From assembly GCA_046563655.1 (NCBI GenBank), contig CM102290.1, positions 14,198,001-14,262,000 on the forward strand: a stretch of 64,000 bases of DNA. The letters are read 5' to 3'. The number at the start of each line of letters is the position of its first letter. Positions within the stretch are counted from its first letter, which is position 1. The translations under genes and the position numbers were made by a program. This document shows positions 8,791 through 38,285 of this stretch, piece after piece. A model generated the notes under the pieces. The model was not told the origin of the DNA. It did not search any database and was given only the letters and a program-made list of their open reading frames with translations. The DNA comes from Yuukianura sp. NJ FZ-2021 (lineage: Eukaryota).

Positions 8791-9590
8791 TTGGATTCAC
8801 CTACTTTAAAAAATGGGGCGGGCGGAGTTATGGCTATCGTATGTGGGTGATTAGGTTATGTTTAGTTATGTTCTTCCTGATTTTTGTTGTGTCGTTTGTT
8901 CCGACATTAAGTTAGGCTAACATAACCTAACTGTTGCCCTCGTTCCGTCAGAAACGTGACGACTTCTCAGAATTGGACAATTGAAGTCGTTCAAATGGCC
9001 TAAAATGTTTACGTTTAGAAAATTAAACGATGCTGAGGATACCGCTTTGTAAAAAGTTAGTTGCATAGGAACTAGTACTGCGTGAGGTTCAGTTAACCTA
9101 ATCTCCTCCTCTGGTTAGGTTAAACTTTAGCCTAATTAGGCTAAAAACCTAATCTCAGGAGATCCTGCAATGCTATTTTCAGGGTACTTCAGTTGTGCCA
9201 CAGTTCAAAAGGGCAGTAAAGGTTGGTTTCACCAAGGTTGTTTCGGCACCAAATTTTGAAAATTCGAAATTTTGAAAAAAAAAGCGCCAAATTTGAACCG
9301 AAGGGTCAATGACCTTTGGGAAGAGCAGAGATGAGTTAATGTGCTACTTACCTTTGGATGATAATTGTTGTGGACACATTTGACACAATTTATGGATGAT
9401 GAGAGGCTCCAGACTGTTTGCCAATTTGCAAATTTTGTTGCCAAATTGCAAATTTTGACTCTGTTTCACAAATCTGCCAATTTTTTCTTCGTATTCCTTG
9501 TGTTTCATCGTCCGTTTTTTCTGGTTTTTGTCCAAGTTCATTGACCTAATCTTATTTTTTTCAATTCCAGATGCTCATCTGAGACGCCAA

Positions 9591-11051
9591 ATGATGGTGG
9601 CACGCGGACAGGAGTCACCGAACGGAGATTCCTGTGGCAACGGTGGTCCACTGCCTCCGGGCATTCTGAATCAAGGGCCCCCTGGCCCCCCACTCTTCGG
9701 GGGTGGCATGCACTCCCCCCCACTTCCGCCCCCCAACGGGGGGTTCCCCCTCCCGGTCACGCCCTTTGACCTCACCGGCAGTTTGAAGCGTAAAGAGCTG
9801 TTCAATCAGAGGAAACAACGTGAATTTATCCCCGATAACAAAAAAGATGACAGTTATTGGGACAGGCGGCGCCGGAACAACGAAGCAGCGAAGCGGTCGC
9901 GAGAAAAACGCAGATTCAATGACATGATTCTCGAGACGCGTGTGATTGAGTTGACAAAGGAAAATCACATTCTGAAGGCTCAGCTGATTGCGATCAAGGA
10001 CAAGTTCGGGATTAACGGAGACAACATGATCAGTTTGGACCAAGTTTTGTCCACATTGCCAACAAATGATCAAGTTCTCAGTCTCACTAAGCGCGCCAAA
10101 GTTTTGGGCGGGAACTTTTTGAAAAGTCCCGGGTATCCTGGTTCTCCATCTGAATCAACCACGCAAGATAATTGTCACATTGACATTGAAGATGAGGATG
10201 ACAGGAGCTACGACAGGCATGGAATGGACGAAAGGTCACGCAGTCCCCAGGCAGCACATCATCAGCATCATCAGCATCTTCATCAGCACATCAGTCGAGC
10301 AGGTCACATGATCCATCCGCCACATATTGACATTGAGAAGCCCAATGATCATCACTTTGCCTACTCTCCACAAGCACTTCACGGAAACTTGAGCAGTGGG
10401 CGCAGCAGTCTCTCTCCATCTGATGACATTCTCAACCTCAGCATCACTTGTAACGTACCGACATCCGAATCATCGCAGTCTGATGAGCGCCAGACGTCCG
10501 ATTCCGATCACAGTCCGCGCGGACTCAAAAGTCCGGAAGGAAAACCGGACAAGTTGAAGCAGGCCAAGGATCAAACCGGTACGGTTTCATCAGCTGTCGG
10601 ATCAGCTGGAACCAATCAGCAACTGCCGCACAAACTTCGGCACAAGACACTTATCGACGGACCGTTCGGCATCATGAAACCGGATCTTCACGGTACCGGT
10701 ACCAGCCCAACACATCACTGGGACCATGACGAGTCGACGAACAGCGGTTCGGGCAGTTCCGACGAACGGGATTCCGGTATTTCAATTAACGGAGAAGCAC
10801 TGGACAAGTTTTCGGCTTCACGACAACCCTCTCCGCTTTCTTCGTTCAAACAGCTGAGCGGCAGACCGCTCGAGAGCAGTTCCGGACAAGATCAGAGTAC
10901 GGTTCAGCAGCGCAAGCGAGCCAAGAAGCGATTCAGCGATGACAGTTCGCTGGAATCCGAAAATTTGAAACTCAAATCCGAATTGGTTCGACTCGCCACT
11001 GAAGTGGCTTGTCTCAAAAACTATCTCACTGCTGGCTGCACACCGCCATAA
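9591..11051 (+). CDS. vri: vrille / NFIL3 (E4BP4) bZIP transcriptional repressor; single large coding exon after a splice acceptor at 9569-9570 (an upstream exon may add a few N-terminal residues)
   Basis: ORF has RKQREFIPDNKKDDSYWDRRRRNNEAAKRSREKRRFND, the PAR/NFIL3-type basic region, followed by a leucine zipper. It also has the LPHKLRHK motif and a C-terminal coiled-coil segment (ENLKLKSELVRLATEVACLK). Confidence 0.93.
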   Translation: MMVARGQESPNGDSCGNGGPLPPGILNQGPPGPPLFGGGMHSPPLPPPNGGFPLPVTPFDLTGSLKRKELFNQRKQREFIPDNKKDDSYWDRRRRNNEAAKRSREKRRFNDMILETRVIELTKENHILKAQLIAIKDKFGINGDNMISLDQVLSTLPTNDQVLSLTKRAKVLGGNFLKSPGYPGSPSESTTQDNCHIDIEDEDDRSYDRHGMDERSRSPQAAHHQHHQHLHQHISRAGHMIHPPHIDIEKPNDHHFAYSPQALHGNLSSGRSSLSPSDDILNLSITCNVPTSESSQSDERQTSDSDHSPRGLKSPEGKPDKLKQAKDQTGTVSSAVGSAGTNQQLPHKLRHKTLIDGPFGIMKPDLHGTGTSPTHHWDHDESTNSGSGSSDERDSGISINGEALDKFSASRQPSPLSSFKQLSGRPLESSSGQDQSTVQQRKRAKKRFSDDSSLESENLKLKSELVRLATEVACLKNYLTAGCTPP

Positions 11052-25985: not shown

Positions 25986-26078
25986 CAAGGTTGCTATAGC
26001 GAACATTTATACAAATTCTCTAACAGGTTATGTCATAACTCCGAAAAAATAAACAAAATTCCGAGTTAAACAAGCTTG
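25986..26078. mobile_element. 93-bp minimal MITE derivative (subfamily C-like)
   Basis: CAAGGTTGCTATAGC...CAAGCTTG flanked by perfect 8-bp TSD ATGAATCC. Confidence 0.75.
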
Positions 26079-26313
26079 ATGAATCCTAAACGCTCTGGTA
26101 AATGTTTAGCTTAATTAACTTAACGTTTCACTTACTTTTTAATGTAATTAGAAGTCAAGGTTTTAACTTAATCAAATAAATAATTAACAGCCCTAAAAAT
26201 CTTTAACACTTTTTTTAATTATATTATTTTTTATGAACAAATTTACACATTTTGTGTTTTTTGTGTTAACTATTGTTTTTGAGATAGAACTATTTAGTGA
26301 TTTTTTGTTTCGT

Positions 26314-27713
26314 TTAGTCTTCTGCGCTGTCCCAGTCCCATTCCCAGCTGTCGTCGCTGGACAACGTTTCTGCCTGGACTGGAACATCGTCGACCAGAAC
26401 CCAGGACCAGCACTCGTTGGCTGCAGCTTCGTTTTCGACAGAGGTCAAAGATGCTGATCGTTTCAAAGTCGATTCCGAAGAATTCTCTGCAGTAACATCA
26501 ATGGCTCCAGCTCCGATAAGATCCGTCAAATCTGCCTTCTCTTCTTCGACATCATCTAAACAAAAACCAGGGTTACAATTACTAATTACTTTTGTTGATT
26601 TACAATTGTAATTTCTTGGTCGTTACCTTTGGTTGTATCAGTAACTTCGTCTACATAGACGTCCTCATCGATAAACTCCAGCATTCGAGACGCCTTGGCT
26701 ATCGCGAACAAGAACCAGATGATAACCGAGAAGATGATAAAGGCATACTGGCGCCGAATTGCTGCCACCATTCTCTTCCGATTGGCTTTGTACACCAGGA
26801 ATGTCGTTTCCGTATCGCCCGGCCAAGGATCAGAAAACTTATGACCAAAACCATACAGTCTCCCGCGGTACCTCGACTCCATGATGTTGTTATTGAAATA
26901 CGTCTCCTTCATCCGGAAAAATACAGAGCCAGTCACAAGCGAATCGCTGCCAGCCTGATGCTGGATTCCAACTCGTCTGATGTTCAATTGACCAGCGATC
27001 CCTTGCAGTCCACCGTGCATGCCGCAGTCCAACATCAAAAACTTGAGGTCATACACCTTTGGAAAAAGGGCCCAAAGGGTTTCAAAAAACTGGACTTCCG
27101 TCTCCGGAAGTTTCCGATTCATCAAGATCTTCCAGAGATATCCAAAATCATAGCAAGAATGGAACGTAATCCAAGTGATTCTTTCTTCAAACAAAAGTCC
27201 AGAAGTGTAGAAGAATTCAGCGAATTCTCTTGGTTCCAGCCCATCGCTGTACAACTGCTCAAAGTCAATTCCAGCCTTGAGCAGTAGAGTAATACTTTCG
27301 TCGATGTAAGCATCCTCGGCCAGGTCAAACTTGAAGTTAAACTGCCAACAGGAGATGCCCGGAGGAGTTCGGCCATACTCGTCCATAAACGTGAGTCCAA
27401 GTTGAATGAGAACCAGAATGTCGACGTTGGCTCGCAGAGTGTTGTACAGGTACGTGGGACTCTGCTGTGTCTCGTTCACTAGGCTAGCAACGACTCCTGG
27501 AAACTCCGTGTCCATGGCAACGTAGCAGTACTGTTTCGGTAGAGTTCGGATGATATGGAACTCTTCGGCAGCATTGTACTTCCACACGTTACGAATCCGA
27601 CTGGGTTCGGCTGAGATAATTCGTGGTGGTGCGTCGTGCTCGCTAAGCGGCTTGAACTTTGATTGTTCATGGGACCTGGACGGACCGGCTCGAGGAAGCT
27701 TCCGCTTGTGCAT
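26314..27713 (-). CDS. CAF1: CAF1/POP2 (CNOT7/8-family) DEDDh deadenylase paralogue with a C-terminal TM helix and acidic tail; exons 27713-26627 and 26555-26314
   Basis: Catalytic motifs AMDTEFPG, FHSCYDFGYL and HQAGSDS are intact. Hydrophobic YAFIIFSVIIWFLFAIA follows the nuclease domain. A phase-1 GT-AG intron (26626-26556) joins the acidic exon in frame. Confidence 0.85.
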
Positions 27714-28394
27714 GGTAGATGAATCTGAAAAAAAACAAAACAAAGATATTGTTTAAGATTCAACTAATTAATTGATTAACGTAAATGATTGATTACTCTT
27801 GGTAACTCGCGGATGTACCAGGAGAAACTTAGGTCAAGAATCCGAAATTCCGGAAGAACTGATGGCCTTGTCTAGAAGCTAAAATGACAAGAGTTTAATT
27901 AATTTTTGAACGAATTAATTAAAAGTTAAGGTTGATTAATTGAATTCCGTACCTGATCCAATTTATATCGAGGGAGCAATTAGCTATGCGACTGACTCCG
28001 ACGACAGCTGGAGAGCGACTGACAGTTTTGCCAATTTTTTAAACTCGTTGTTAAACATTGGCTAACGATTGGTCGCCATAGCAACAATATCACAAGAAAC
28101 AAAAAAAAATTAGGAAAATGAAAAAAAAATGTATTTTTTTTTTCATTTTCCAGAATGATTTTGTTCAATCTTAAGTTTAGTTAAATGCCTTTTAATTTTA
28201 GATTTCCTTTTGGAGAGAACGAGAACGAGAATCTTGAAATTCTAGAAGATTCTCGGACAGGAATCGCAGTTTTTAAACTAATGTTTTAAACCAAGTTTTT
28301 AAAACTAGTTTTTTTAAAACTTAGTTTGAATTCAGCCTTCGGCTCTACCAACTACTCCGTAGTACCGAGTTGGGACCTCTCTTGAATTCCGATT

Positions 28395-30470
28395 TTAAGC
28401 ATCAGATAAAGCTGCCACTCCTGGAAGAACTTTGCCTAAATTCAGAAAAAAAGTTAGGTTAAAACTAATTCTTAATATAATTAATTGAATTAATGAAATT
28501 AAAACGAATACAATTAAAGTCACCTTCTAGTAACTCCAAACTGGCTCCGCCTCCAGTGCTCACGTGACTCACTAATTTCTCAGTGTTCCACTTAGCACAG
28601 CAAGTGGCAGTGTCTCCACCTCCGATTATTGTCAGGGCGCCATTCTTCGTGGCTTCAACAACTCCGTCCATCAGGGCTTTCGTTCCATTGGCAAAGTTCG
28701 GAAACTCAAAAACACCCATGGGCCTGCAATCACAAAGTAATCGATTACTTAAACTGATGGATCACTTATGCTATAGAGAGTAATCAATTAATTAAAAGTA
28801 ATCGATTACTCAGAAACAAGTGGATCACTTATGCTATAGAAAGTCGTCGATTATTATGAGTGTCACCTACCCGTTCCAGATGATTACTTTAGCAGATTTG
28901 ATTGGTTCCAAGAATTTGGTGGTTGAGGCTGGACCGATGTCAAGGCCTAACCAACCAGCTGGAATTCCAGATTCAATCGTTGCACTTCCAACCTTTGAAA
29001 AATTGAAAAACATTATTTTTGAAAAAAAAAGTTGTGGAATTTCGAAAATTCAAGCTTTGTTACCTCTGCATCTTCAGCAAACTTGCTTGCGGTGATAGCA
29101 TCCGTTGGAAGATGAACTTTGACTCCTTTCTGGGCAGCCTTTTCCATTAACTTTTCAACAATCTTGGATCCGGCTTCATCAAATAACGAATTTCCAATCT
29201 AAGAAAATGAAAACATGTTAAAAATGAAAAAGTTACACAAAAGGCGCCAAATTCAAAATTATTTAAACTAACCTCCATTCCGTTCAAAACTTTCAAGAAG
29301 GTGAAGGCCATGCCACCTCCAATGATCATCTCATCTACCTTGTCCAGCAAGTTTTCAATTAGTTGAATCTTGTCCGAAACTTTGGCTCCTCCCAGGATGG
29401 CCAACACCGGTCTAAAAAGAGAAATCGATTATCAAAATTTCGAAATTTATACTTTTCAAAATTTCGAACCATATGACTTACCGTTCCGGATTATCCAGAG
29501 CCTTTGCAAAGTACTCCAGTTCAGCTTTGAGTAAAAGTCCAGAAGCCCTTTGCTCAAATCCTTCGCCCATCATGGAACTGTGAGCACGATGGGCCGTCCC
29601 AAAGGCATCGTTCACATAAACGTCGCCCAACTTCCGCAGAGACTCTCGAAAGGATTTGACTTTGTCAGCAGATGCTTTGACCTGTGAAAAACGAGTAAGA
29701 ATTCATGATGCGTACACTCTGATTACTAATCGTTAGTGACCAATTGTGTTTTATGACATAATCTTACCTTGTTCCCACTCTGGTCAATTCCTTTTCCCTC
29801 TTCTTCCAAGTAGAATCGAAGATTTTCCAGGAGAATGATACTGCCCTCGGCTGGATTCGAACACGCAGCTTCCACTTCTGGACCAACACAGTCCGGTAGG
29901 AATGTAACGTCTTTGCCCAGCAGTTCCTTTACTTTGGTAGCCACGGGAGCCAAAGTGTACTTTGGATTCGGTAGGCCATCAGGTCTGCCCAGATGAGACA
30001 TGAGCACGACACTCTTGGCTCCTTCGGACAGGGCATACTTGATTGTATCCAGAGCTGCTACAATTCGCTGATCGTTGGTAATCACACCGTTCTTCAGTGG
30101 TACATTGAAATCGACTCTGAAATAATCAATGACTAATTAGCTTAATCACTCAAAAATTACTCATGAAAGATGATTTTAAGCCTTAAAGTTTAAGGTGTTC
30201 GGTGACGAGCGAATTCTTGATGTCACGAAGACATCAAAAACTGTTTGGTCACTAACGATTTCTGTTGCACTCTGACCGTCAACTTTCAATTAACTTGATA
30301 ATCGACATAGAACTTGACCGAGTGCTTCCTGGACCTGACGTTCTAGAATCTTTAAATTGTAATCATTGCATGATTAATCTAAAATGATGTTAATTGGTAA
30401 GGTACCTCATGAGTACTCGTTGTCCCTTCAAGGGTACGCTGGTAATGCTAAGCTTCTTGAGTGACGACAT
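28395..30470 (-). CDS. PGK: Phosphoglycerate kinase, multi-exon
   Basis: [96 protein letters not shown] and [12 protein letters not shown]. Confidence 0.97.
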
Positions 30471-33400: not shown

Positions 33401-35921
33401 GTATACAATATTTCTTGAAAATTTTTGTTGTTTCGAGGCTTGCATGGGGCGATTTAACAAAAAGGCGAAAAAAAAGTGGGAAAATTTTCAAAACTTTTGA
33501 ACAATCGGAGCTGATTTATGACTTTTGAGCAGGATTTTTAAAAAAAAGTTGGTTTTTCAAAAAATGTTGTGAGCAAGGGAGTGCTATATCACCTACACTA
33601 GACATTTTTTACATTAATTTTGAATTTGGCAGTTTTCAGTGAAAACAGAAACTGTAGAATTGTTAGACACAAAAACCAAAACGTGTTCAAACGGCAGCAA
33701 AACCAACTTTTCAACTAAAACTAAATTTCTATTGACTAAATTTTAAAAAAAACGAACAAGGAGAAGGAAATTTTAAAAAATTTGGAGTTGTGCAAACAGG
33801 TTAAAATCAAGGAAATTTTGGAACATGCATCTCCTTGCTGCACCCGTGTTCTAAACAAATCTAAGTTCAAACAAGTTTAGAAAATGCAATTTTCAAACTT
33901 TTCTAAACAAGTGAGAAAAAGTTTAAGTTTTTGCGTTTTTTTTTTGTTTACAAACATGAATCCTCAAGGCTCACGGTGGATCTCGATCTCATTCACATGC
34001 ATAGCGTGTCAGTGGTCCTACCTTGTTGAAACTTTGTTATTAGATTAAACGGTGGGTTCATGGTGGGTTCGTGGTGGGTTCATGGTGGGGCATGGTGGGT
34101 TCACCCTGGATTACGTGAGGCATCCTCCAGATTTTATTCCTCAGTTTGAACAAACAAAGTTTGCTTTCTCGTGTCCAAATTCTTTTCTCAAAAGATCAAA
34201 AACCTAAAAACCTTCGTCTTGCTATCGTTACTCACTCAGATATTCAAAAAAACGCCTTTCAAAAAAATAATGTTAGGAAAATTCCTCGAAATAAAAAAAA
34301 ATTTGACTTTTCAATTTCTTTGTCTTCACCACAAACTGTCTATTTCTCCTTTTAGTTTTTTATTTTTTTTTTCTTCTTGCTTCTGAAATTTGAAACAATT
34401 TTGAAATTTTGTGAGCTTGAAACACTACTTTAACAAAAAAAGAAGCACAGAAATGAAAACGTAAACTCTAAAATGAAACAAAAGTTAAAACTGAGAAAAA
34501 TTGTTTTTAGAAATTTTTGAAATTCGGAAATTTTTTGCTTAAATCTAGCTATGAAAAGGCAGGAAACCTTTTTTAGAACAAGGATTTTTGAGAACAAAAT
34601 CCAATTCCAAGTGTTGTTTTATTTCCCATTTTCAATTTAAATTTGGAAGTGTTCAAGTGTTTTTCGAAAACTCAAAAAACTTTTTTTTGAAAAGAAAGTT
34701 TGGCACAAAGCTATTAAATTTTATGGTCTCCCAGTTTCAATTGACTGTACTGCGGTGTAAAAACTTTTTCTTTAAAAGTCCAACAACGACCAAATGCGGT
34801 CATAAAATTTTAAAGTGGTTGCCGAACTAGAATGTTCAGTTTTTAAAAAACCGTTTAAAAAGCGATACTTAAAAATAGCGCCAATTTCAATAAAGTTCTT
34901 TCATTTTGGTTTTTCACGGATGCTGATTTGATAACAGATTAAGCTTTACCAAATTTGAAATTCAAAAAACTGAATTTTGAAAATTTTGAATTTTCCCTCC
35001 ACCCTTTCTGGTCCTTGTAACTTTTGAAATGAATGAATAAATAAAGAACCACTCAGACAGCATTTGCGAAAATGAAAGAAAAGCTGCTTTCTCTCGTTTT
35101 TTAAAAATTCCTTTTGAAACGGGAATCTCCAAGGCCCTATCGTAAAAAAAAAAAAGTCGTTTAGAATTTTCTTTTAAAGAAATTTTGAATTTAGAATACA
35201 CCAAAATTTCAAACAAAAAGAAAAGTGCATTACAAAGTAAAAATTCATTTTTCAAAGTAAACAAAATTTCTATTATCTACCTACTCTCTGATCTCACATT
35301 CAAAACCAAAATTCAAATCAAAAACAGTTTTTTTGCCAATTTCAAAATTTTGAAGTTTTTCACTGTTGATGTAATTGGTGTTTAACTAATGAAAAATTTT
35401 CCATTGACTGTCTCCTGTTGCGTCGTAATTTTGAAAAACTGACCAGCGAGAGTGTGATCAGCGTGTGATCGGATTTCAATTCAATCGAATTTCAACTGGA
35501 AATGTTTCCAAAATGTGTCAATTAAAATTATAGTCAGTTTCAAAATTTTGGTTTTTCAAAAGGCGGAGCTAATTCCCTCACTCTTCTATGCCTCTCATCA
35601 GGTTACGTCACTTGACTAAACTTTAGGCTCCGCCCCCTCTGTAACTAAATATAAAAAACATACTGTACTTTAAGTTAATCCCTACTTTTTAGTTAAAACT
35701 TTAGTTAATCTCCTAATTAAGTCGCAAGTGTTTTACAATCCAAAGATCTAAAAAGTGCCTTTTGTCTCGTATGACGTCCGGATAAAAATGAATAAAAGTT
35801 TTGCTCTGTCTCTTTTCGACTCCATTTGAGTCGTCCGAGACGAAAAAGCTTACTAAAATTTTACAAACAGTTTTTGAAACTTTTTTTTTGTTCAAAATTT
35901 TGAAATTGTGTTTAAAAAAGG

Positions 35922-38285
35922 ATGAGTAGGGTTGAGGTGGAGAAGTCGTACCTTCCGCAGTACATTCAACTTTCTGGCCATGGAGACGTCAATAAACTGG
36001 AAAGTGGAGGATACGAGGATCCGAATAAACCGGAAGTGCTAGTCTACGGTGGCAAAGGAGTTGACTACGCCAATCAAAATTTGTATCCGAGTCTTCTTCC
36101 CGCCAAAAACCCGGATTCAAAAACCCCGCTTATTTCAAAACCCAAGAAACATGCGCCGACCAAAGCCAATTGGTTTGGAATCTTCCTGGCATTCATGTCC
36201 GGAGTATTCTTCACCCTTTGCTCAGGAACTGTCAAGTATCTCACGGACATTGACCCCATGGAACTACTCATCTTCAGGTCACTTTTTCAGGTAACGCAAA
36301 CAATCAACTGCGCAGAAGCTGCGATTTCTTCTGGTCAGAAGATTTTGTTTCTACTACGCAGAAGCTGCGATTTCTACTGCGCAGAAGGTTTTTTTTAAGG
36401 TCAACGACCTCCAATAATGTTTGTTGTATAAATGGGGCGAAGGTTCCTTGACAACCAAATTATATTTCCTACAACAGGTTGTCCAATATATCAGAGTTTC
36501 GAAAAATGTTACTTGAAACAAACTTCTGAACTAATTCCTATTACATTACATACAAATCATTACCATAGAAAGGCACTGTGAAGCAAATTTTGCAAATTAT
36601 TTAACAAAATTCAAAAGTCGAGTTATTGGACAACCTGGTGTAGAAAAATCAAAGTCAACAAACCTTGGTTTGGTTTCTACTGCGCAGAAGCTTTGGTTTT
36701 TAGTTCGCAGAAGGCTTTCTAAGGTCAATGACCTCCAATATTGTTCGTTGTATAAGTTGTGCTATTGAAGATAGGCAAAGCACTGAATCGTTTGTGGCAA
36801 GGATGAGTCAAGGAGTCATAACCTTGACTCATTGACTCAATATTCATTGACTCATGACTCATTTTGACTCTGTAGGTAGCCCTTACTTTACCAATTGCGT
36901 TGTACAAGCGTCAGAATGTGCTTGGTCCAGAGGGGTCACGACTGCTGCTGTTTGCCCAAGGCCTCGTCGGAGGCACGACGCTCGTCCTGCTCTTCTACTC
37001 CTTCCGACTTCTACCGCTAGGAGATGCTGCCACTATCATTTTTAGGTACGAAATTCAAAATTTCAAAAAAAAAATGTCAAAATTTCAAAAAATTGAACAT
37101 TTTGGAAACTTATAGCTCGCCCGTGTTCGTGATGGTGATGTCCCACATTTGTTTGCACGAACCGTGCGGTTTTTACCGTACATTTATCGTGACGCTGCTC
37201 GTGACTGGAGTCGTGATGATCACGAAACCGCCGTTCCTCTTTTCAAGCAATAGTGGGCAAGAGACGTACAACATCCTGGGCTACATCTGCGCCCTCTGCG
37301 GTACGCTTTTTACTGCGATCAACATTGTCGTGATGCGGAAGTTGAAGGATGTCCACTTCTCGGTCGTCGTGTTCCAGTTCTCGTTCTATTCACTCATCAT
37401 CAGTTCAATCATCTTGGCTCTATCGGGAGACTGGGAAGTGCCAAACAACACTCCGCAGGAATGGATTCTGTGTGTACTCGTCGCAGTGTTCGGAGTGTCT
37501 GGACAGATTCTGGTGGCCATAGCACTGGGACACGAGGGGGCTGGAAGAGTCGCAGTCACAAGGTCACTCGACATTGTCTTGGCATACGTCCTACAGGTGA
37601 GCTCAGTTGAAAATTTAACTCACTTCGACTTTAGTTTGTTACTTAAGTAACAAATGAGGTCAAATTTGACCTCATTTTGACCAGTTTTGACTTGTTTGGA
37701 ATTTATCTTGACTTATTTTGACCAGTTTCAGCCAAGGTTCCTTGCACCGAATTGTAATTTCCAGAACAGGTTGTCCAATAACTCAGGGTTTCCAAAAATC
37801 TTACCTCAAAAAAAATTTCTGCTGCACCAATCCCATTTACATTACCTGCGAAAAATCACAATAGAAAGGCTGATTTGCTATTTCAAACAAATTTAAAATC
37901 TTCCAGTTATTGAACAACCTGGTGCAGAAACAGTTTTTTTTTTGTTTACGAACCTTGACTTTCAGCAGTTTTGGTTTGTGTTGCCTTTATCTTGACTTCG
38001 TTTTGACCACACTTTGACCAGTTTTACTTTGACTTTATCTTAAGTTCGTTTTGACTTGATTTTGACCAGTTGTGGTACATTTTGAGTTCAGTTTTAGCAG
38101 TTTGACTTCGTTTTGATGTTACTTTGACCTCATTTGACCTTTGTATTTTGACGTTGTTTCAGGTCATAATCTTTGGAGATGTTCCGGAGTGGGAGTCAAT
38201 GCTCGGAGCGTTTATGGTGATGATTTGTGTGATTGGCATGGGCTTGGAGGATGTCATTCACCGTCTCTTCACATCAGTCCCTTAA
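35922..38285 (+). CDS. SLC35G-like (EamA/DMT superfamily) multi-pass transporter; exons 35922-36290, 36876-37045, 37116-37596, 38163-38285
   Basis: About 10 hydrophobic segments; EamA-type motifs LPLGDAATIIFSSPVFV, EGAGRVAVTRSLDIVLAY and QVIIFGDVPEWESMLGA; splice junctions stay in frame. Confidence 0.85.
36439..36667. mobile_element. hAT-like MITE, subfamily B, in transporter intron 1
   Basis: AAGGTTCCTTGACAACC...GGACAACCTGGTGTAGAAAA...AAACCTTG; internal ACCATAGAAAGGC shared with the 40573 copy and, with one change, the 37733 copy. Confidence 0.8.
37733..37957. mobile_element. hAT-like MITE, subfamily B, in transporter intron 3
   Basis: CAAGGTTCC...GAACCTTG; flanks AGTTTCAGC/ACTTTCAGC. Confidence 0.8.

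What the first reader, a model, noticed from the sequence alone, without database searches (positions are those of the whole stretch)
26314..27713. CAF1 deadenylase paralogue with an acquired transmembrane anchor
Seen in the sequence: a complete DEDDh active site (D-T-E, YD, H...D) is followed in the same exon by a basic stretch (KANRKR...IRRQ) and a 17-aa hydrophobic helix, YAFIIFSVIIWFLFAIA (about 26698-26747). Known: canonical CAF1/CNOT7 is a soluble subunit of CCR4-NOT. A membrane-anchored DEDD nuclease precedent exists in the PARN-like piRNA trimmer PNLDC1, but I know of none in the CNOT7 branch. By eye, segments that contact partners have diverged from the human protein: LRCNVDLL reads LRANVDIL here (CCR4 contact), and LLMTSG reads FFYTSG (NOT1 contact). 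Inference: an organelle-tethered 3'-5' RNase, possibly CCR4-NOT-independent and germline-specific, acting on ER- or mitochondria-bound mRNAs or small RNAs.
Basis: partly seen in the sequence, partly recalled or inferred. Interest (0 to 1): 0.78.

Follow-up and report, generated by a model that had tools for sequence, protein, structure and literature searches.

The report
Divergent CAF1 deadenylase with membrane helix
An invertebrate gene encodes a strongly diverged copy of the CAF1/CNOT7 poly(A)-removing enzyme that keeps its active site, has changed the surfaces that normally dock it into the CCR4-NOT complex, and has gained a membrane-type helix and an acidic tail found in no other family member examined.

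Summary
A two-exon gene lies on the minus strand (27713..26627 and 26555..26314, with a 71-nt intron) and encodes 442 aa. Residues 40-292 are a CNOT7-type DEDDh domain with all five catalytic residues intact. They match human CNOT7 at E 2e-86, and the model fits it at TM 0.94-0.97.

After the domain come a basic stretch, a 17-aa hydrophobic helix (26697-26747; Kyte-Doolittle 2.24 over 19 aa) and a 103-aa tail of net charge -24. None of 270 retrieved homologues has a TM-grade segment after the domain. Four searches found no relative of the tail.

The protein is 51-57% identical to 120 canonical arthropod CNOT7s, which are about 85% identical to each other. Contact positions for NOT1 and the CCR4 LRR are replaced preferentially (Fisher p 0.004), including M141Y. 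The Tob/BTG helix is rewritten, and K203 is lost.

Listed polymorphisms are 14 synonymous to 1 non-synonymous. One RNA contig covers exon 2.

Best reading (0.55): a lineage-restricted CNOT7 paralogue working as a membrane-tethered 3'-5' RNase outside CCR4-NOT. Membrane insertion, organelle, tissue, substrates and a separate canonical copy are untested. It is a new variant of a known kind.

The parts
26627..27713 (-). Coding exon 1 (residues 1-362 plus the first base of codon 363). It holds the N-terminal extension, the whole CAF1 domain, the basic stretch, the hydrophobic helix and the start of the acidic tail.
   Evidence: It is an open frame from the first in-frame ATG. The donor AAAG|GTAACG lies at 26627/26626. 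tblastn with P0004 aligns without interruption over 27614-26832, so the domain has no intron.
27597..27713 (-). N-terminal extension, residues 1-39. It is basic (MHKRKLPR...), not conserved, and predicted disordered.
   Evidence: AF2 pLDDT is below 50 for residues 1-7, 9-18 and 31-34. Homologue alignments begin at about residue 35.
26838..27596 (-). CAF1/CNOT7-type DEDDh 3'-5' exoribonuclease domain, residues 40-292. The catalytic residues are D68, E70, D189, H252 and D257.
   Evidence: Pfam PF04857 scores 78.6 bits against a cut-off of 24.2. Human CNOT7 matches at E 2.1e-86. AF2 pLDDT block means are 83-98, mostly 93-98. Foldseek gives TMt 0.94-0.97 and rmsd 1.0-1.3 A to most CNOT7 chains. 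The catalytic columns are invariant in 120 of 120 homologues and kept here.
26748..26837 (-). Linker, residues 293-322. Residues 293-315 still resemble the C-terminal tail of the nearest canonical sequences. Residues 309-322 are the basic stretch KANRKRMVAAIRRQ (six K/R).
   Evidence: Tail comparison; coordinates; flank charges.
26697..26747 (-). Hydrophobic helix YAFIIFSVIIWFLFAIA, residues 323-339: the putative single transmembrane segment.
   Evidence: KD19 is 2.24. It is part of one long predicted helix, residues 301-348, with block-mean pLDDT 67-90. GC3 over residues 293-345 is 0.64, against 0.25-0.32 in the intron and flanks. No homologue aligns here.
26556..26626 (-). Predicted 71-nt intron (GT..AG, phase 1).
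   Evidence: Splice consensus and frame continuity. GC is 0.28 against about 0.50 in the flanking exons. No RNA junction was seen.
26314..26555 (-). Coding exon 2, the rest of the acidic tail, with the stop at 26316-26314. It contains ECWSWVLVDD (26386-26415) and the C-terminal DDSWEWDWDSAED (26317-26355).
   Evidence: The frame stays open after splicing. The tail after the helix is 103 aa with net charge -24 and 5 W. A 171-nt contig of an RNA library lies on 26322-26492 with 3 differences. Pfam finds no family.
27009..27038 (-). Rewritten Tob/BTG-contact helix. The canonical LMKSCKNLKGG reads LMLDC-GMHGG, and K203 (human numbering) is deleted.
   Evidence: the column is K or R in 119 of 120 homologues and a gap here. 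The role of K203 comes from passages of PMC4656213.
27198..27215 (-). NOT1-contact helix alpha5. Canonical LLMTSG reads FFYTSG, so human M141 is Y169 here.
   Evidence: the column is M 107, I 9, L 3, T 1 and Y 0 of 120. M141R abolishes NOT1 binding (PMC3510486, passages).

Best explanation
This is a real, intact and selectively maintained gene of an unidentified invertebrate. A neighbouring gene's nearest named relative is a springtail protein at only 37% identity.

The gene descends from the canonical CNOT7/CAF1 of its own lineage and has evolved very fast. Its RNase D-like fold and DEDDh centre are kept, so it most likely still removes nucleotides 3'-5' from RNA, with poly(A) by default. Activity is inferred, not shown.

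The surfaces that dock CAF1 onto the NOT1 MIF4G domain, the CCR4 LRR and Tob/BTG proteins have been rewritten. It therefore probably works outside the CCR4-NOT complex (inferred).

After the domain, the ancestral short tail gives way to a new 127-aa region (residues 316-442). This holds a basic stretch, a 17-aa hydrophobic helix and a 103-aa acidic, tryptophan-bearing tail. Six K/R lie before the helix, and the 15 residues after it have a net charge of -3. The positive-inside rule (established knowledge) therefore puts the nuclease on the cytosolic face of an internal membrane and the acidic tail on the far side.

The working model is a membrane-tethered exoribonuclease acting on RNAs at an organelle surface. 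By convergence it is analogous to PNLDC1 and EXD2. The organelle, substrates and tissue are unknown.
For: Family and fold:
- Pfam CAF1 scores 78.6 bits.
- Human CNOT7 matches at E 2e-86 over residues 35-292.
- AF2 block-mean pLDDT is 83-98 across the domain.
- Foldseek gives TMt 0.94-0.97 to CNOT7 chains, against 0.49-0.59 and 12-18% identity for PARN.
- All 5 catalytic residues are kept.

Divergence:
- Identity to 120 canonical homologues is 51-57%, while sampled canonical pairs have a median of 85%.
- The end branch is 4.45 against a median of 0.084.

Origin within a lineage:
- The protein groups at SH-aLRT 100 with four unnamed sequences.
- Those four share LYGFG and a tail motif with it, but are near-canonical at the interface positions.

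Interfaces:
- At columns at least 90% conserved, 8 of 11 contact positions differ, against 46 of 164 other positions (Fisher p 0.004).
- M141Y, R49S, P50L, C67A and M107A each occur in 0 of 120 homologues.
- K203 is deleted.
- Contact lists come from passages of PMC3510486, PMC8216464 and PMC4656213.

Helix:
- KD19 is 2.24. 0 of 270 homologues have a TM-grade segment after the domain.
- It lies in a long helix, residues 301-348.
- Codon composition is coding-like.

Selection:
- 14 synonymous and 1 non-synonymous among the 15 listed coding variants; binomial p 7e-9.
- Contigs labelled organism B cover 26347-26860 with 11 differences and no gap.

Expression hint: one RNA-library contig lies on exon 2, and another lies on the neighbouring PGK exon.
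Against: - No RNA read spans the TM segment or the splice junction, so an isoform without the helix is not excluded.
- No dedicated TM or targeting predictor was available. The only other measure, a Hessa-type sum with values recalled from memory, is just -0.17 kcal/mol for the best 19-aa window. That is borderline because of the flanking K.
- Hydrophobic windows of this grade occur in 14 of 321 six-frame ORFs of this AT-rich window.
- No orthologue carrying the helix or tail was found anywhere. Conservation of the new part therefore rests on one near-identical second source.
- None of the listed variants falls in residues 293-442. Purifying selection is thus shown for the domain, not for the helix or tail.
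- The variant table was truncated; 23 rows were not shown.
- 103 residues follow the helix, which is too many for a classical tail anchor.
- The tail holds W-acidic and LIR-like motifs, which in known proteins act in the cytosol (W-acidic from PMC6214655 passages; LIR recalled). This conflicts with the predicted topology.
- E138, R28, A137, T142, E149 and N171 of the NOT1 interface are kept, and A/I at positions 67/71 are tolerated in yeast. Residual CCR4-NOT binding is therefore possible.
- A separate canonical CAF1 in this genome was not shown.
Confidence: 0.55

Rival explanations
1. The nuclease paralogue is real, but the hydrophobic segment is not a working membrane anchor. It could be removed in the main isoform by an alternative splice. 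It could also be a recently acquired read-through of former 3' flank that serves as a degron or an oligomerisation helix. In that case the protein is soluble.
For: - Hydrophobic windows arise easily in this AT-rich genome: 14 of 321 ORFs.
- No orthologue keeps the segment.
- No RNA covers it.
- AF2 draws one continuous helix over residues 301-348 rather than a separate anchor.
- The cytosol-type W-acidic motif in the tail would make sense if both ends were cytosolic (PMC6214655, passages).
Against: - The segment has no charged or strongly polar residue; its only polar ones are Y323 and S330. It is bracketed by K/R on both sides.
- GC3 of 0.64 matches the coding domain, not the flanks.
- The frame is kept without gaps in the second source.
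- No non-synonymous variant is listed there.
Confidence: 0.22
2. It is the organism's only CAF1: a fast-evolving orthologue that still sits in CCR4-NOT. The whole complex, or a share of it, would then be membrane-tethered in this lineage.
For: - No second CAF1 lies in the 64-kb window, and no genome could be searched.
- Six of 11 NOT1 contacts, including E138, are kept.
- A and I at positions 67 and 71 keep the hydrophobic character of the CCR4 contact (PMC8216464, passages).
Against: - Canonical CNOT7 is about 85% identical across arthropods.
- The four nearest unnamed sequences, which share derived residues with this protein, are canonical at the interfaces. A canonical gene therefore exists in the lineage.
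- M141, P50, R49, M107 and K203 are all replaced or lost.
Confidence: 0.1
3. It is a decaying duplicate or retrocopy (a pseudogene in the making), and the tail is meaningless read-through.
For: - The branch is very long.
- The domain has no intron, as a retrocopy would.
- The C-terminal region is an orphan.
Against: - The frame is 442 codons long and intact.
- All catalytic residues and 27 alignment-wide invariant columns are kept.
- Listed variants are 14 synonymous to 1 non-synonymous, p 7e-9.
- The domain is modelled at pLDDT 93-98 over most of its length.
- An RNA contig lies on exon 2.
- Neighbouring genes such as Pex3 also lack introns, so the absence of introns is not telling.
Confidence: 0.05

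Closest known systems
CNOT7/CNOT8 (CAF1, POP2), the DEDDh deadenylase subunit of CCR4-NOT
   Same: The domain, fold and five catalytic residues are the same. Identity to human CNOT7 is 53%, TMt is 0.94-0.97, and rmsd is 1.0-1.3 A for most chains.
   Different: - It is 51-57% identical to canonical arthropod proteins, which are about 85% identical to each other.
- The NOT1, CCR4-LRR and Tob/BTG contact positions are replaced: M141Y, L147F, I184T, L187A, F188L, R49S, P50L, C67A, M107A, and K203 deleted.
- It carries a basic stretch, a TM-grade helix and a 103-aa acidic tail that none of the 270 homologues examined has.
PNLDC1 (PARN-like pre-piRNA trimmer)
   Same: The architecture is alike: a CAF1-family (PF04857) DEDD nuclease followed by a putative C-terminal transmembrane segment, residues 506-525 in human PNLDC1. 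BmPNLDC1 is reported to be anchored with Papi at the mitochondrial surface (PMC5062988, passages).
   Different: - It is a different branch. PARN structures match at TMt 0.49-0.59 and 12-18% identity only, and no PARN chain reached E 0.001 by sequence.
- Here 103 residues follow the helix rather than a few.
- No link to piRNAs or Papi/TDRKH was tested.
EXD2 (DEDDy exonuclease of the mitochondrial outer membrane)
   Same: It is a DEDD-superfamily 3'-5' exonuclease held on an organelle surface by a single TM helix, with the nuclease facing the cytosol (PMC6648332, abstract and passages).
   Different: EXD2 is anchored by an N-terminal signal anchor, belongs to the DnaQ/DEDDy group and has an HNH-like domain. 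There is no sequence relationship beyond the superfamily.

Membership tests
CAF1/CNOT7-POP2 branch of DEDDh nucleases (Pfam PF04857) | Profile or sequence match above the curated threshold | tested here: met
   PF04857 scores 78.6 bits against a cut-off of 24.2. All 9 PDB sequence hits are CNOT7, CNOT8, Caf1 or Pop2, the best at E 2.1e-86.
CAF1/CNOT7-POP2 branch of DEDDh nucleases (Pfam PF04857) | RNase D-like fold that superposes on CNOT7 | tested here: met
   The AF2 model has block-mean pLDDT 83-98 over residues 40-290. Foldseek gives TMt 0.94-0.97 to 9e7t_C, 4gmj and 7ax1_B; rmsd is 1.0-1.3 A, apart from 3.0 A for 4gmj_D.
CAF1/CNOT7-POP2 branch of DEDDh nucleases (Pfam PF04857) | DEDDh catalytic residues (human D40, E42, D161, H225, D230) | tested here: met
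   D68, E70, D189, H252 and D257 are present, and each column is invariant in 120 of 120 homologues. Enzyme activity itself could not be tested.
CCR4-NOT nuclease-module subunit | Conserved NOT1 MIF4G contact residues (R28, A137, E138, M141, T142, L147, E149, N171, I184, L187, F188; PMC3510486 passages) | tested here: not met
   6 of 11 are kept and 5 are replaced. M141Y occurs in 0 of 120 homologues, L187A in 0 of 120, L147F in 3 of 120 and F188L in 1 of 120. I184T is absent from the five commonest residues of its column, which cover 116 of 120. Binding itself was not tested.
CCR4-NOT nuclease-module subunit | Conserved CCR4 LRR contact residues (A48-P50, C67, L71, M107; PMC8216464 passages) | tested here: not met
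   R49S, P50L, C67A and M107A each occur in 0 of 120 homologues, and L71I in 6 of 120; A48 is kept. Yeast has A, F and I at positions 67, 71 and 107, so the hydrophobic character partly remains. Binding was not tested.
CCR4-NOT nuclease-module subunit | Tob/BTG-binding helix with K203 (PMC4656213 passages) | tested here: not met
   The changes are K200L, S201D, K203 deleted, N204G, L205M, K206H and E211G. The K203 column is K or R in 119 of 120 homologues.
PNLDC1/PARN branch | Closer similarity to PARN or PNLDC1 than to CNOT7 | tested here: not met
   PARN chains reach TMt 0.49-0.59 and 12-18% identity. None reached E 0.001 by sequence.
PNLDC1/PARN branch | Transmembrane segment C-terminal to the nuclease | tested here: met
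   A hydrophobic helix spans residues 323-339 with KD19 2.24. This is a likeness of architecture only. Insertion into a membrane was not tested.
PNLDC1/PARN branch | Pre-piRNA trimming with Papi/TDRKH | not testable with these tools
   No genome, no expression data by tissue, and no partner sequences were available.
Tail-anchored membrane proteins | A single TM within roughly the last 30-40 residues (definition recalled) | tested here: not met
   103 residues follow the helix.

The most novel reading that the evidence does not exclude
A CNOT7-derived nuclease has left the CCR4-NOT complex and become an integral membrane protein. Its anchor and acidic, tryptophan-bearing tail were built from sequence with no detectable ancestry, possibly former 3' flank. 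The result recreates, by convergence, the PNLDC1/EXD2 design of an organelle-surface 3'-5' RNase. It would trim or deadenylate RNAs at a membrane independently of NOT1, CCR4 and BTG/Tob.
Probability: 0.3. Interest if true: 0.75.

Novelty: new variant of a known kind. Interest (0 to 1): 0.55.

Why it matters
CAF1/CNOT7 is treated as an obligate soluble subunit of CCR4-NOT and is among the most conserved proteins of mRNA decay.

This copy keeps the catalytic centre under purifying selection, loses the three mapped partner surfaces and gains a membrane helix. It would be a natural separation-of-function variant, showing what the nuclease can do alone and at a membrane.

It would also be a second, independent origin of the nuclease-plus-anchor design known from PNLDC1 and EXD2. 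In addition, it may be a traceable case of a transmembrane segment arising from non-homologous sequence at the end of an old gene.

The case is limited by its narrow known distribution: one organism plus one near-identical second source.

Tried and rejected
- Whole-genome search: no genome is held. The tests for a separate canonical CAF1, PNLDC1 or PARN could not be run.
- Earlier findings of the scan: nothing by place or by sequence.
- Tail orthologues:
  - The word-indexed search restricted to residues 290-361 gave 6 candidates, and none scored E <= 10.
  - In the exhaustive search of 50% representatives, none of the 150 best hits aligned beyond query residue 310.
  - The Atlas gave no usable hit for residues 293-361.
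  - The metagenome scan with the tail matched 304 stretches, of which 1 passed tblastn (L001, 32% over 56 aa). I rejected it. It is a GC-rich 2147-base contig with no CAF1-like ORF, and the match lies in an off-frame stretch opposite a 269-aa ORF.
  - No second metagenome scan was allowed.
- RNA cover: the one RNA library (X6) covers only 26322-26492 of this gene. Exon 1, the helix and the junction have no cover. That says nothing either way.
- A joint 26064->28280 appears in one X2 contig, with only 22 letters on one side. The piece at 28280-28322 has 8 differences in 43. I read it as a dispersed repeat elsewhere in the genome, not a deletion allele. No second copy of either flank lies in the window.
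- Retrogene origin: the domain has no intron, but neither does the neighbouring Pex3 gene. The absence of introns was therefore rejected as evidence.
- An upstream coding exon was considered. The only plausible donor (about 27954) is preceded by an in-frame TAA four codons before it, by my reading. The ATG at 27713 was therefore kept as the start.
- The antisense ORF 26586-27287 (+, 233 aa) was read as a shadow of the coding strand.
- Literature: searches for CAF1 + deadenylase + transmembrane + paralog (33 papers, 15 listed), deadenylase + tail-anchored (15 papers, 12 listed) and CNOT7 + retrogene (3 papers, 2 listed) showed no membrane-anchored CNOT7-branch protein in the titles and abstract beginnings listed. 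I did not open those papers. Subscription journals are not covered.
Full report
**What is in the sequence**

The finding lies on the minus strand. An open frame starts at the first in-frame ATG (27713) and runs to 26627. There a donor AAAG|GTAACG is followed 71 nt later by TTTGTTTAG|A. Splicing 26627 to 26555 keeps the frame, which then runs to a stop at 26316-26314 and gives 442 codons. I used the unspliced exon 1 translation (P0001, 361 aa) for all searches.

**Family**

- Pfam finds only CAF1 (PF04857), at 78.6 bits against a cut-off of 24.2.
- Against PDB sequences, all nine hits are CNOT7, CNOT8, Caf1 or Pop2. The best is human CNOT7 at E 2.1e-86 over residues 35-292.
- An AlphaFold2 model built on a 70-sequence alignment has block-mean pLDDT of 83-98 over residues 40-290.
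- The model superposes on CNOT7 chains at TMt 0.94-0.97, with rmsd 1.0-1.3 A for most chains. PARN reaches only TMt 0.49-0.59 at 12-18% identity.
- The protein therefore belongs to the CNOT7 branch, not the PARN/PNLDC1 branch.
- The five DEDDh residues (D68, E70, D189, H252, D257) are present. Each column is invariant in the 120 best homologues.

**The added C-terminal region**

- Similarity to canonical proteins can be followed to about residue 315. The query reads LYGFGHKFSDPWPGDTETTFLVY, and the four nearest sequences read LYGFG(S/T)SF..(D/N)..(Y/F)Y (three of them DLT(V/L)(Y/F)Y) and stop 0-25 residues later.
- Then come KANRKRMVAAIRRQ (residues 309-322), YAFIIFSVIIWFLFAIA (323-339, 26697-26747) and a 103-aa tail with 30 D/E, 6 K/R and 5 W.
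- The helix scores Kyte-Doolittle 2.24 over 19 aa.
- Among 270 homologues (the 120 best 90% clusters and the 150 best 50% representatives), only three have windows of 2.0 or more. All three lie N-terminal to the CAF1 match, so they look like fused gene models. None lies after the domain.
- AF2 draws one long helix over residues 301-348, with block-mean pLDDT 67-90.
- Third-position GC is 0.64 for the linker plus helix and 0.50 for the tail. It is 0.57 in the domain, 0.28 in the intron and 0.25-0.32 in the flanks. The added region therefore has coding composition.
- A caution: in this AT-rich window, 14 of 321 six-frame ORFs of 60 aa or more reach the same hydrophobicity. The helix alone is not beyond chance.
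- A Hessa-type sum, with scale values recalled from memory, is -0.17 kcal/mol for the best 19-aa window. That is borderline.

**No relative of the new region was found**

- The 150 best of 3479 hits in the exhaustive search end at query residue 310 or earlier.
- The word-indexed search restricted to residues 290-361 gave nothing.
- The Atlas gave nothing for residues 293-361.
- The metagenome scan gave one hit, which I rejected as an off-frame match on a bacterial-type contig.
- The window's own protein is also absent from the collection. The organism is evidently poorly sampled.
- The neighbouring single-exon Pex3 gene finds unnamed proteins at up to 61% identity. Its best named hit is a springtail protein at 37%.

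**Divergence and origin**

- The domain is 51-57% identical to the 120 canonical homologues (median 54%). A sample of 1500 pairs among those homologues has a median of 85%.
- In a quick maximum-likelihood tree of 58 rows, its end branch is 4.45 against a median of 0.084.
- It sits in a group with SH-aLRT 100 alongside four unnamed sequences: P0003, P0004, P0059 and P0029. With so long a branch the placement is unsure.
- Those four share the derived LYGFG and the tail motif with the query. They are 66-76% identical to other arthropod CNOT7s.
- They are near-canonical at the partner interfaces.
- I infer that the lineage has a canonical CNOT7 and that this gene is a fast-evolving duplicate. No genome was available to show the second copy. 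The window holds only this one CAF1 locus.

**Partner surfaces**

I took contact residues from passages of three papers and converted numbering with the alignment.

NOT1 MIF4G (PMC3510486):
- R28, A137, E138, T142, E149 and N171 are kept.
- M141 is Y (0 of 120 homologues), L147 is F (3 of 120), I184 is T, L187 is A (0 of 120) and F188 is L (1 of 120).
- The paper reports that M141R alone abolishes NOT1 binding.

CCR4 LRR (PMC8216464):
- A48 is kept.
- R49S, P50L, C67A and M107A each occur in 0 of 120 homologues, and L71I in 6 of 120.
- Yeast has A, F and I at positions 67, 71 and 107, so C67A and L71I are weak evidence.

Tob/BTG (PMC4656213, citing Horiuchi 2009 for K203A):
- The nearly invariant LMKSCKNLKGGLQEVA reads LMLDC-GMHGGLQGIA.
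- K203 is deleted.

The enrichment test covers the NOT1 and CCR4 LRR contact positions only. At columns at least 90% conserved, 8 of 11 contact positions differ, against 46 of 164 other positions (Fisher p 0.004). The p-values are 0.014 and 0.024 at thresholds of 85% and 95%. Loss of binding is inferred, not shown.

**Selection and expression**

- DNA contigs of two runs from one sample (X1, X2) differ from the window at 15 listed coding positions.
- 14 of these are synonymous and 1 is not (E163V).
- With 290 synonymous and 1036 non-synonymous sites, the binomial probability of at most one non-synonymous change is 7e-9.
- All 15 lie in codons 17-253, so the result speaks for the domain only.
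- The table was truncated, with 23 rows not shown.
- Contigs labelled as a second organism (X5) cover 26347-26860, which includes the helix, intron and tail. They show 11 differences and no gap. They also cover 27566-27724.
- A 171-nt contig of an environmental RNA library lies on 26322-26492 in exon 2, with 3 differences. A 285-nt contig of the same library lies on a PGK exon.
- This is a hint of transcription, not proof. It does not cover the helix or the junction.

**Mechanism**

Shown:
- an intact CNOT7-type catalytic domain under purifying selection;
- rewritten partner surfaces;
- a unique hydrophobic helix with basic flanks and an acidic tail.

Inferred:
- The protein is a 3'-5' exoribonuclease.
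- It acts outside CCR4-NOT.
- It is held on a membrane. The nuclease would be cytosolic, because there are six K/R before the helix against a net -3 in the 15 residues after it.

A tension remains. The tail ends in DDSWEWDWDSAED, which resembles the W-acidic kinesin-light-chain motif (EWD; SKIP TNLEWDDSAI; PMC6214655 passages). It also contains ECWSWVLVDD, which fits a W-x-x-V/L LIR core (recalled). Both motifs work in the cytosol in known proteins. The predicted topology puts the tail on the far side of the membrane.

With 103 residues after the helix, this is not a classical tail anchor.

**Comparison and novelty**

The nuclease-plus-anchor design is known from two proteins:
- PNLDC1 has a putative TM at residues 506-525 (PMC5062988, passages).
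- EXD2 has an N-terminal anchor in the mitochondrial outer membrane (PMC6648332, abstract and passages).

I found no such protein in the CNOT7 branch, either among 270 homologues or in the listings of three literature searches.

I rate it a new variant of a known kind. It is of moderate to good interest and is limited by single-lineage evidence.

Noticed in passing
window 26000-26146: Depth in the DNA runs is far above the surroundings (X1 10548 against about 180-200). Many loose ends fall at 26004, 26043 and 26078. This looks like a high-copy dispersed repeat directly 3' of the gene. No second copy lies in the window.
   Followed up: partly
window 26064 / 28280: One X2 contig joins these two places, skipping 2215 bases that hold the whole CAF1 gene. 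The shorter side has only 22 letters, and the 28280-28322 piece has 8 differences in 43. I read it as a repeat elsewhere, but a presence/absence allele was not excluded.
   Followed up: partly
window 21626-22843 (+): A single-exon peroxin-3 gene (406 aa). Its best matches are unnamed metagenome-derived proteins at 44-61% identity, and its best named hit is the springtail Allacma fusca at 37%. The source organism appears to belong to a poorly sampled invertebrate lineage.
   Followed up: partly
window 13757-14575 (-): An ORF with one Ion_trans domain (PF00520, E 1e-33) and an S4-like R-x-x-R run. This is a single-repeat cation-channel exon. Its type (CatSper-like or other) was not determined.
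   Followed up: no
window 9459-11051 (+): A long exon encoding a bZIP_2 protein (E 6e-17). Its basic region looks like vrille/NFIL3 to me (recalled likeness).
   Followed up: no
window 26317-26415 (-): The acidic tail carries ECWSWVLVDD (LIR-like core) and the C-terminal DDSWEWDWDSAED (W-acidic-like; compare SKIP TNLEWDDSAI). Both are likenesses by eye and conflict with the predicted topology.
   Followed up: partly
window 27690-27713 (-): The N-terminal MHKRKLPR is NLS-like by eye. Together with a TM helix it could suggest the inner nuclear membrane. No predictor was available.
   Followed up: no
window 18727-20448 (+), 28465-30136 (-), 35916-37650 (+): The neighbours are ordinary housekeeping genes: TRM1 tRNA methyltransferase exons, phosphoglycerate kinase with introns, and an EamA/SLC35-type transporter.
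   Followed up: partly
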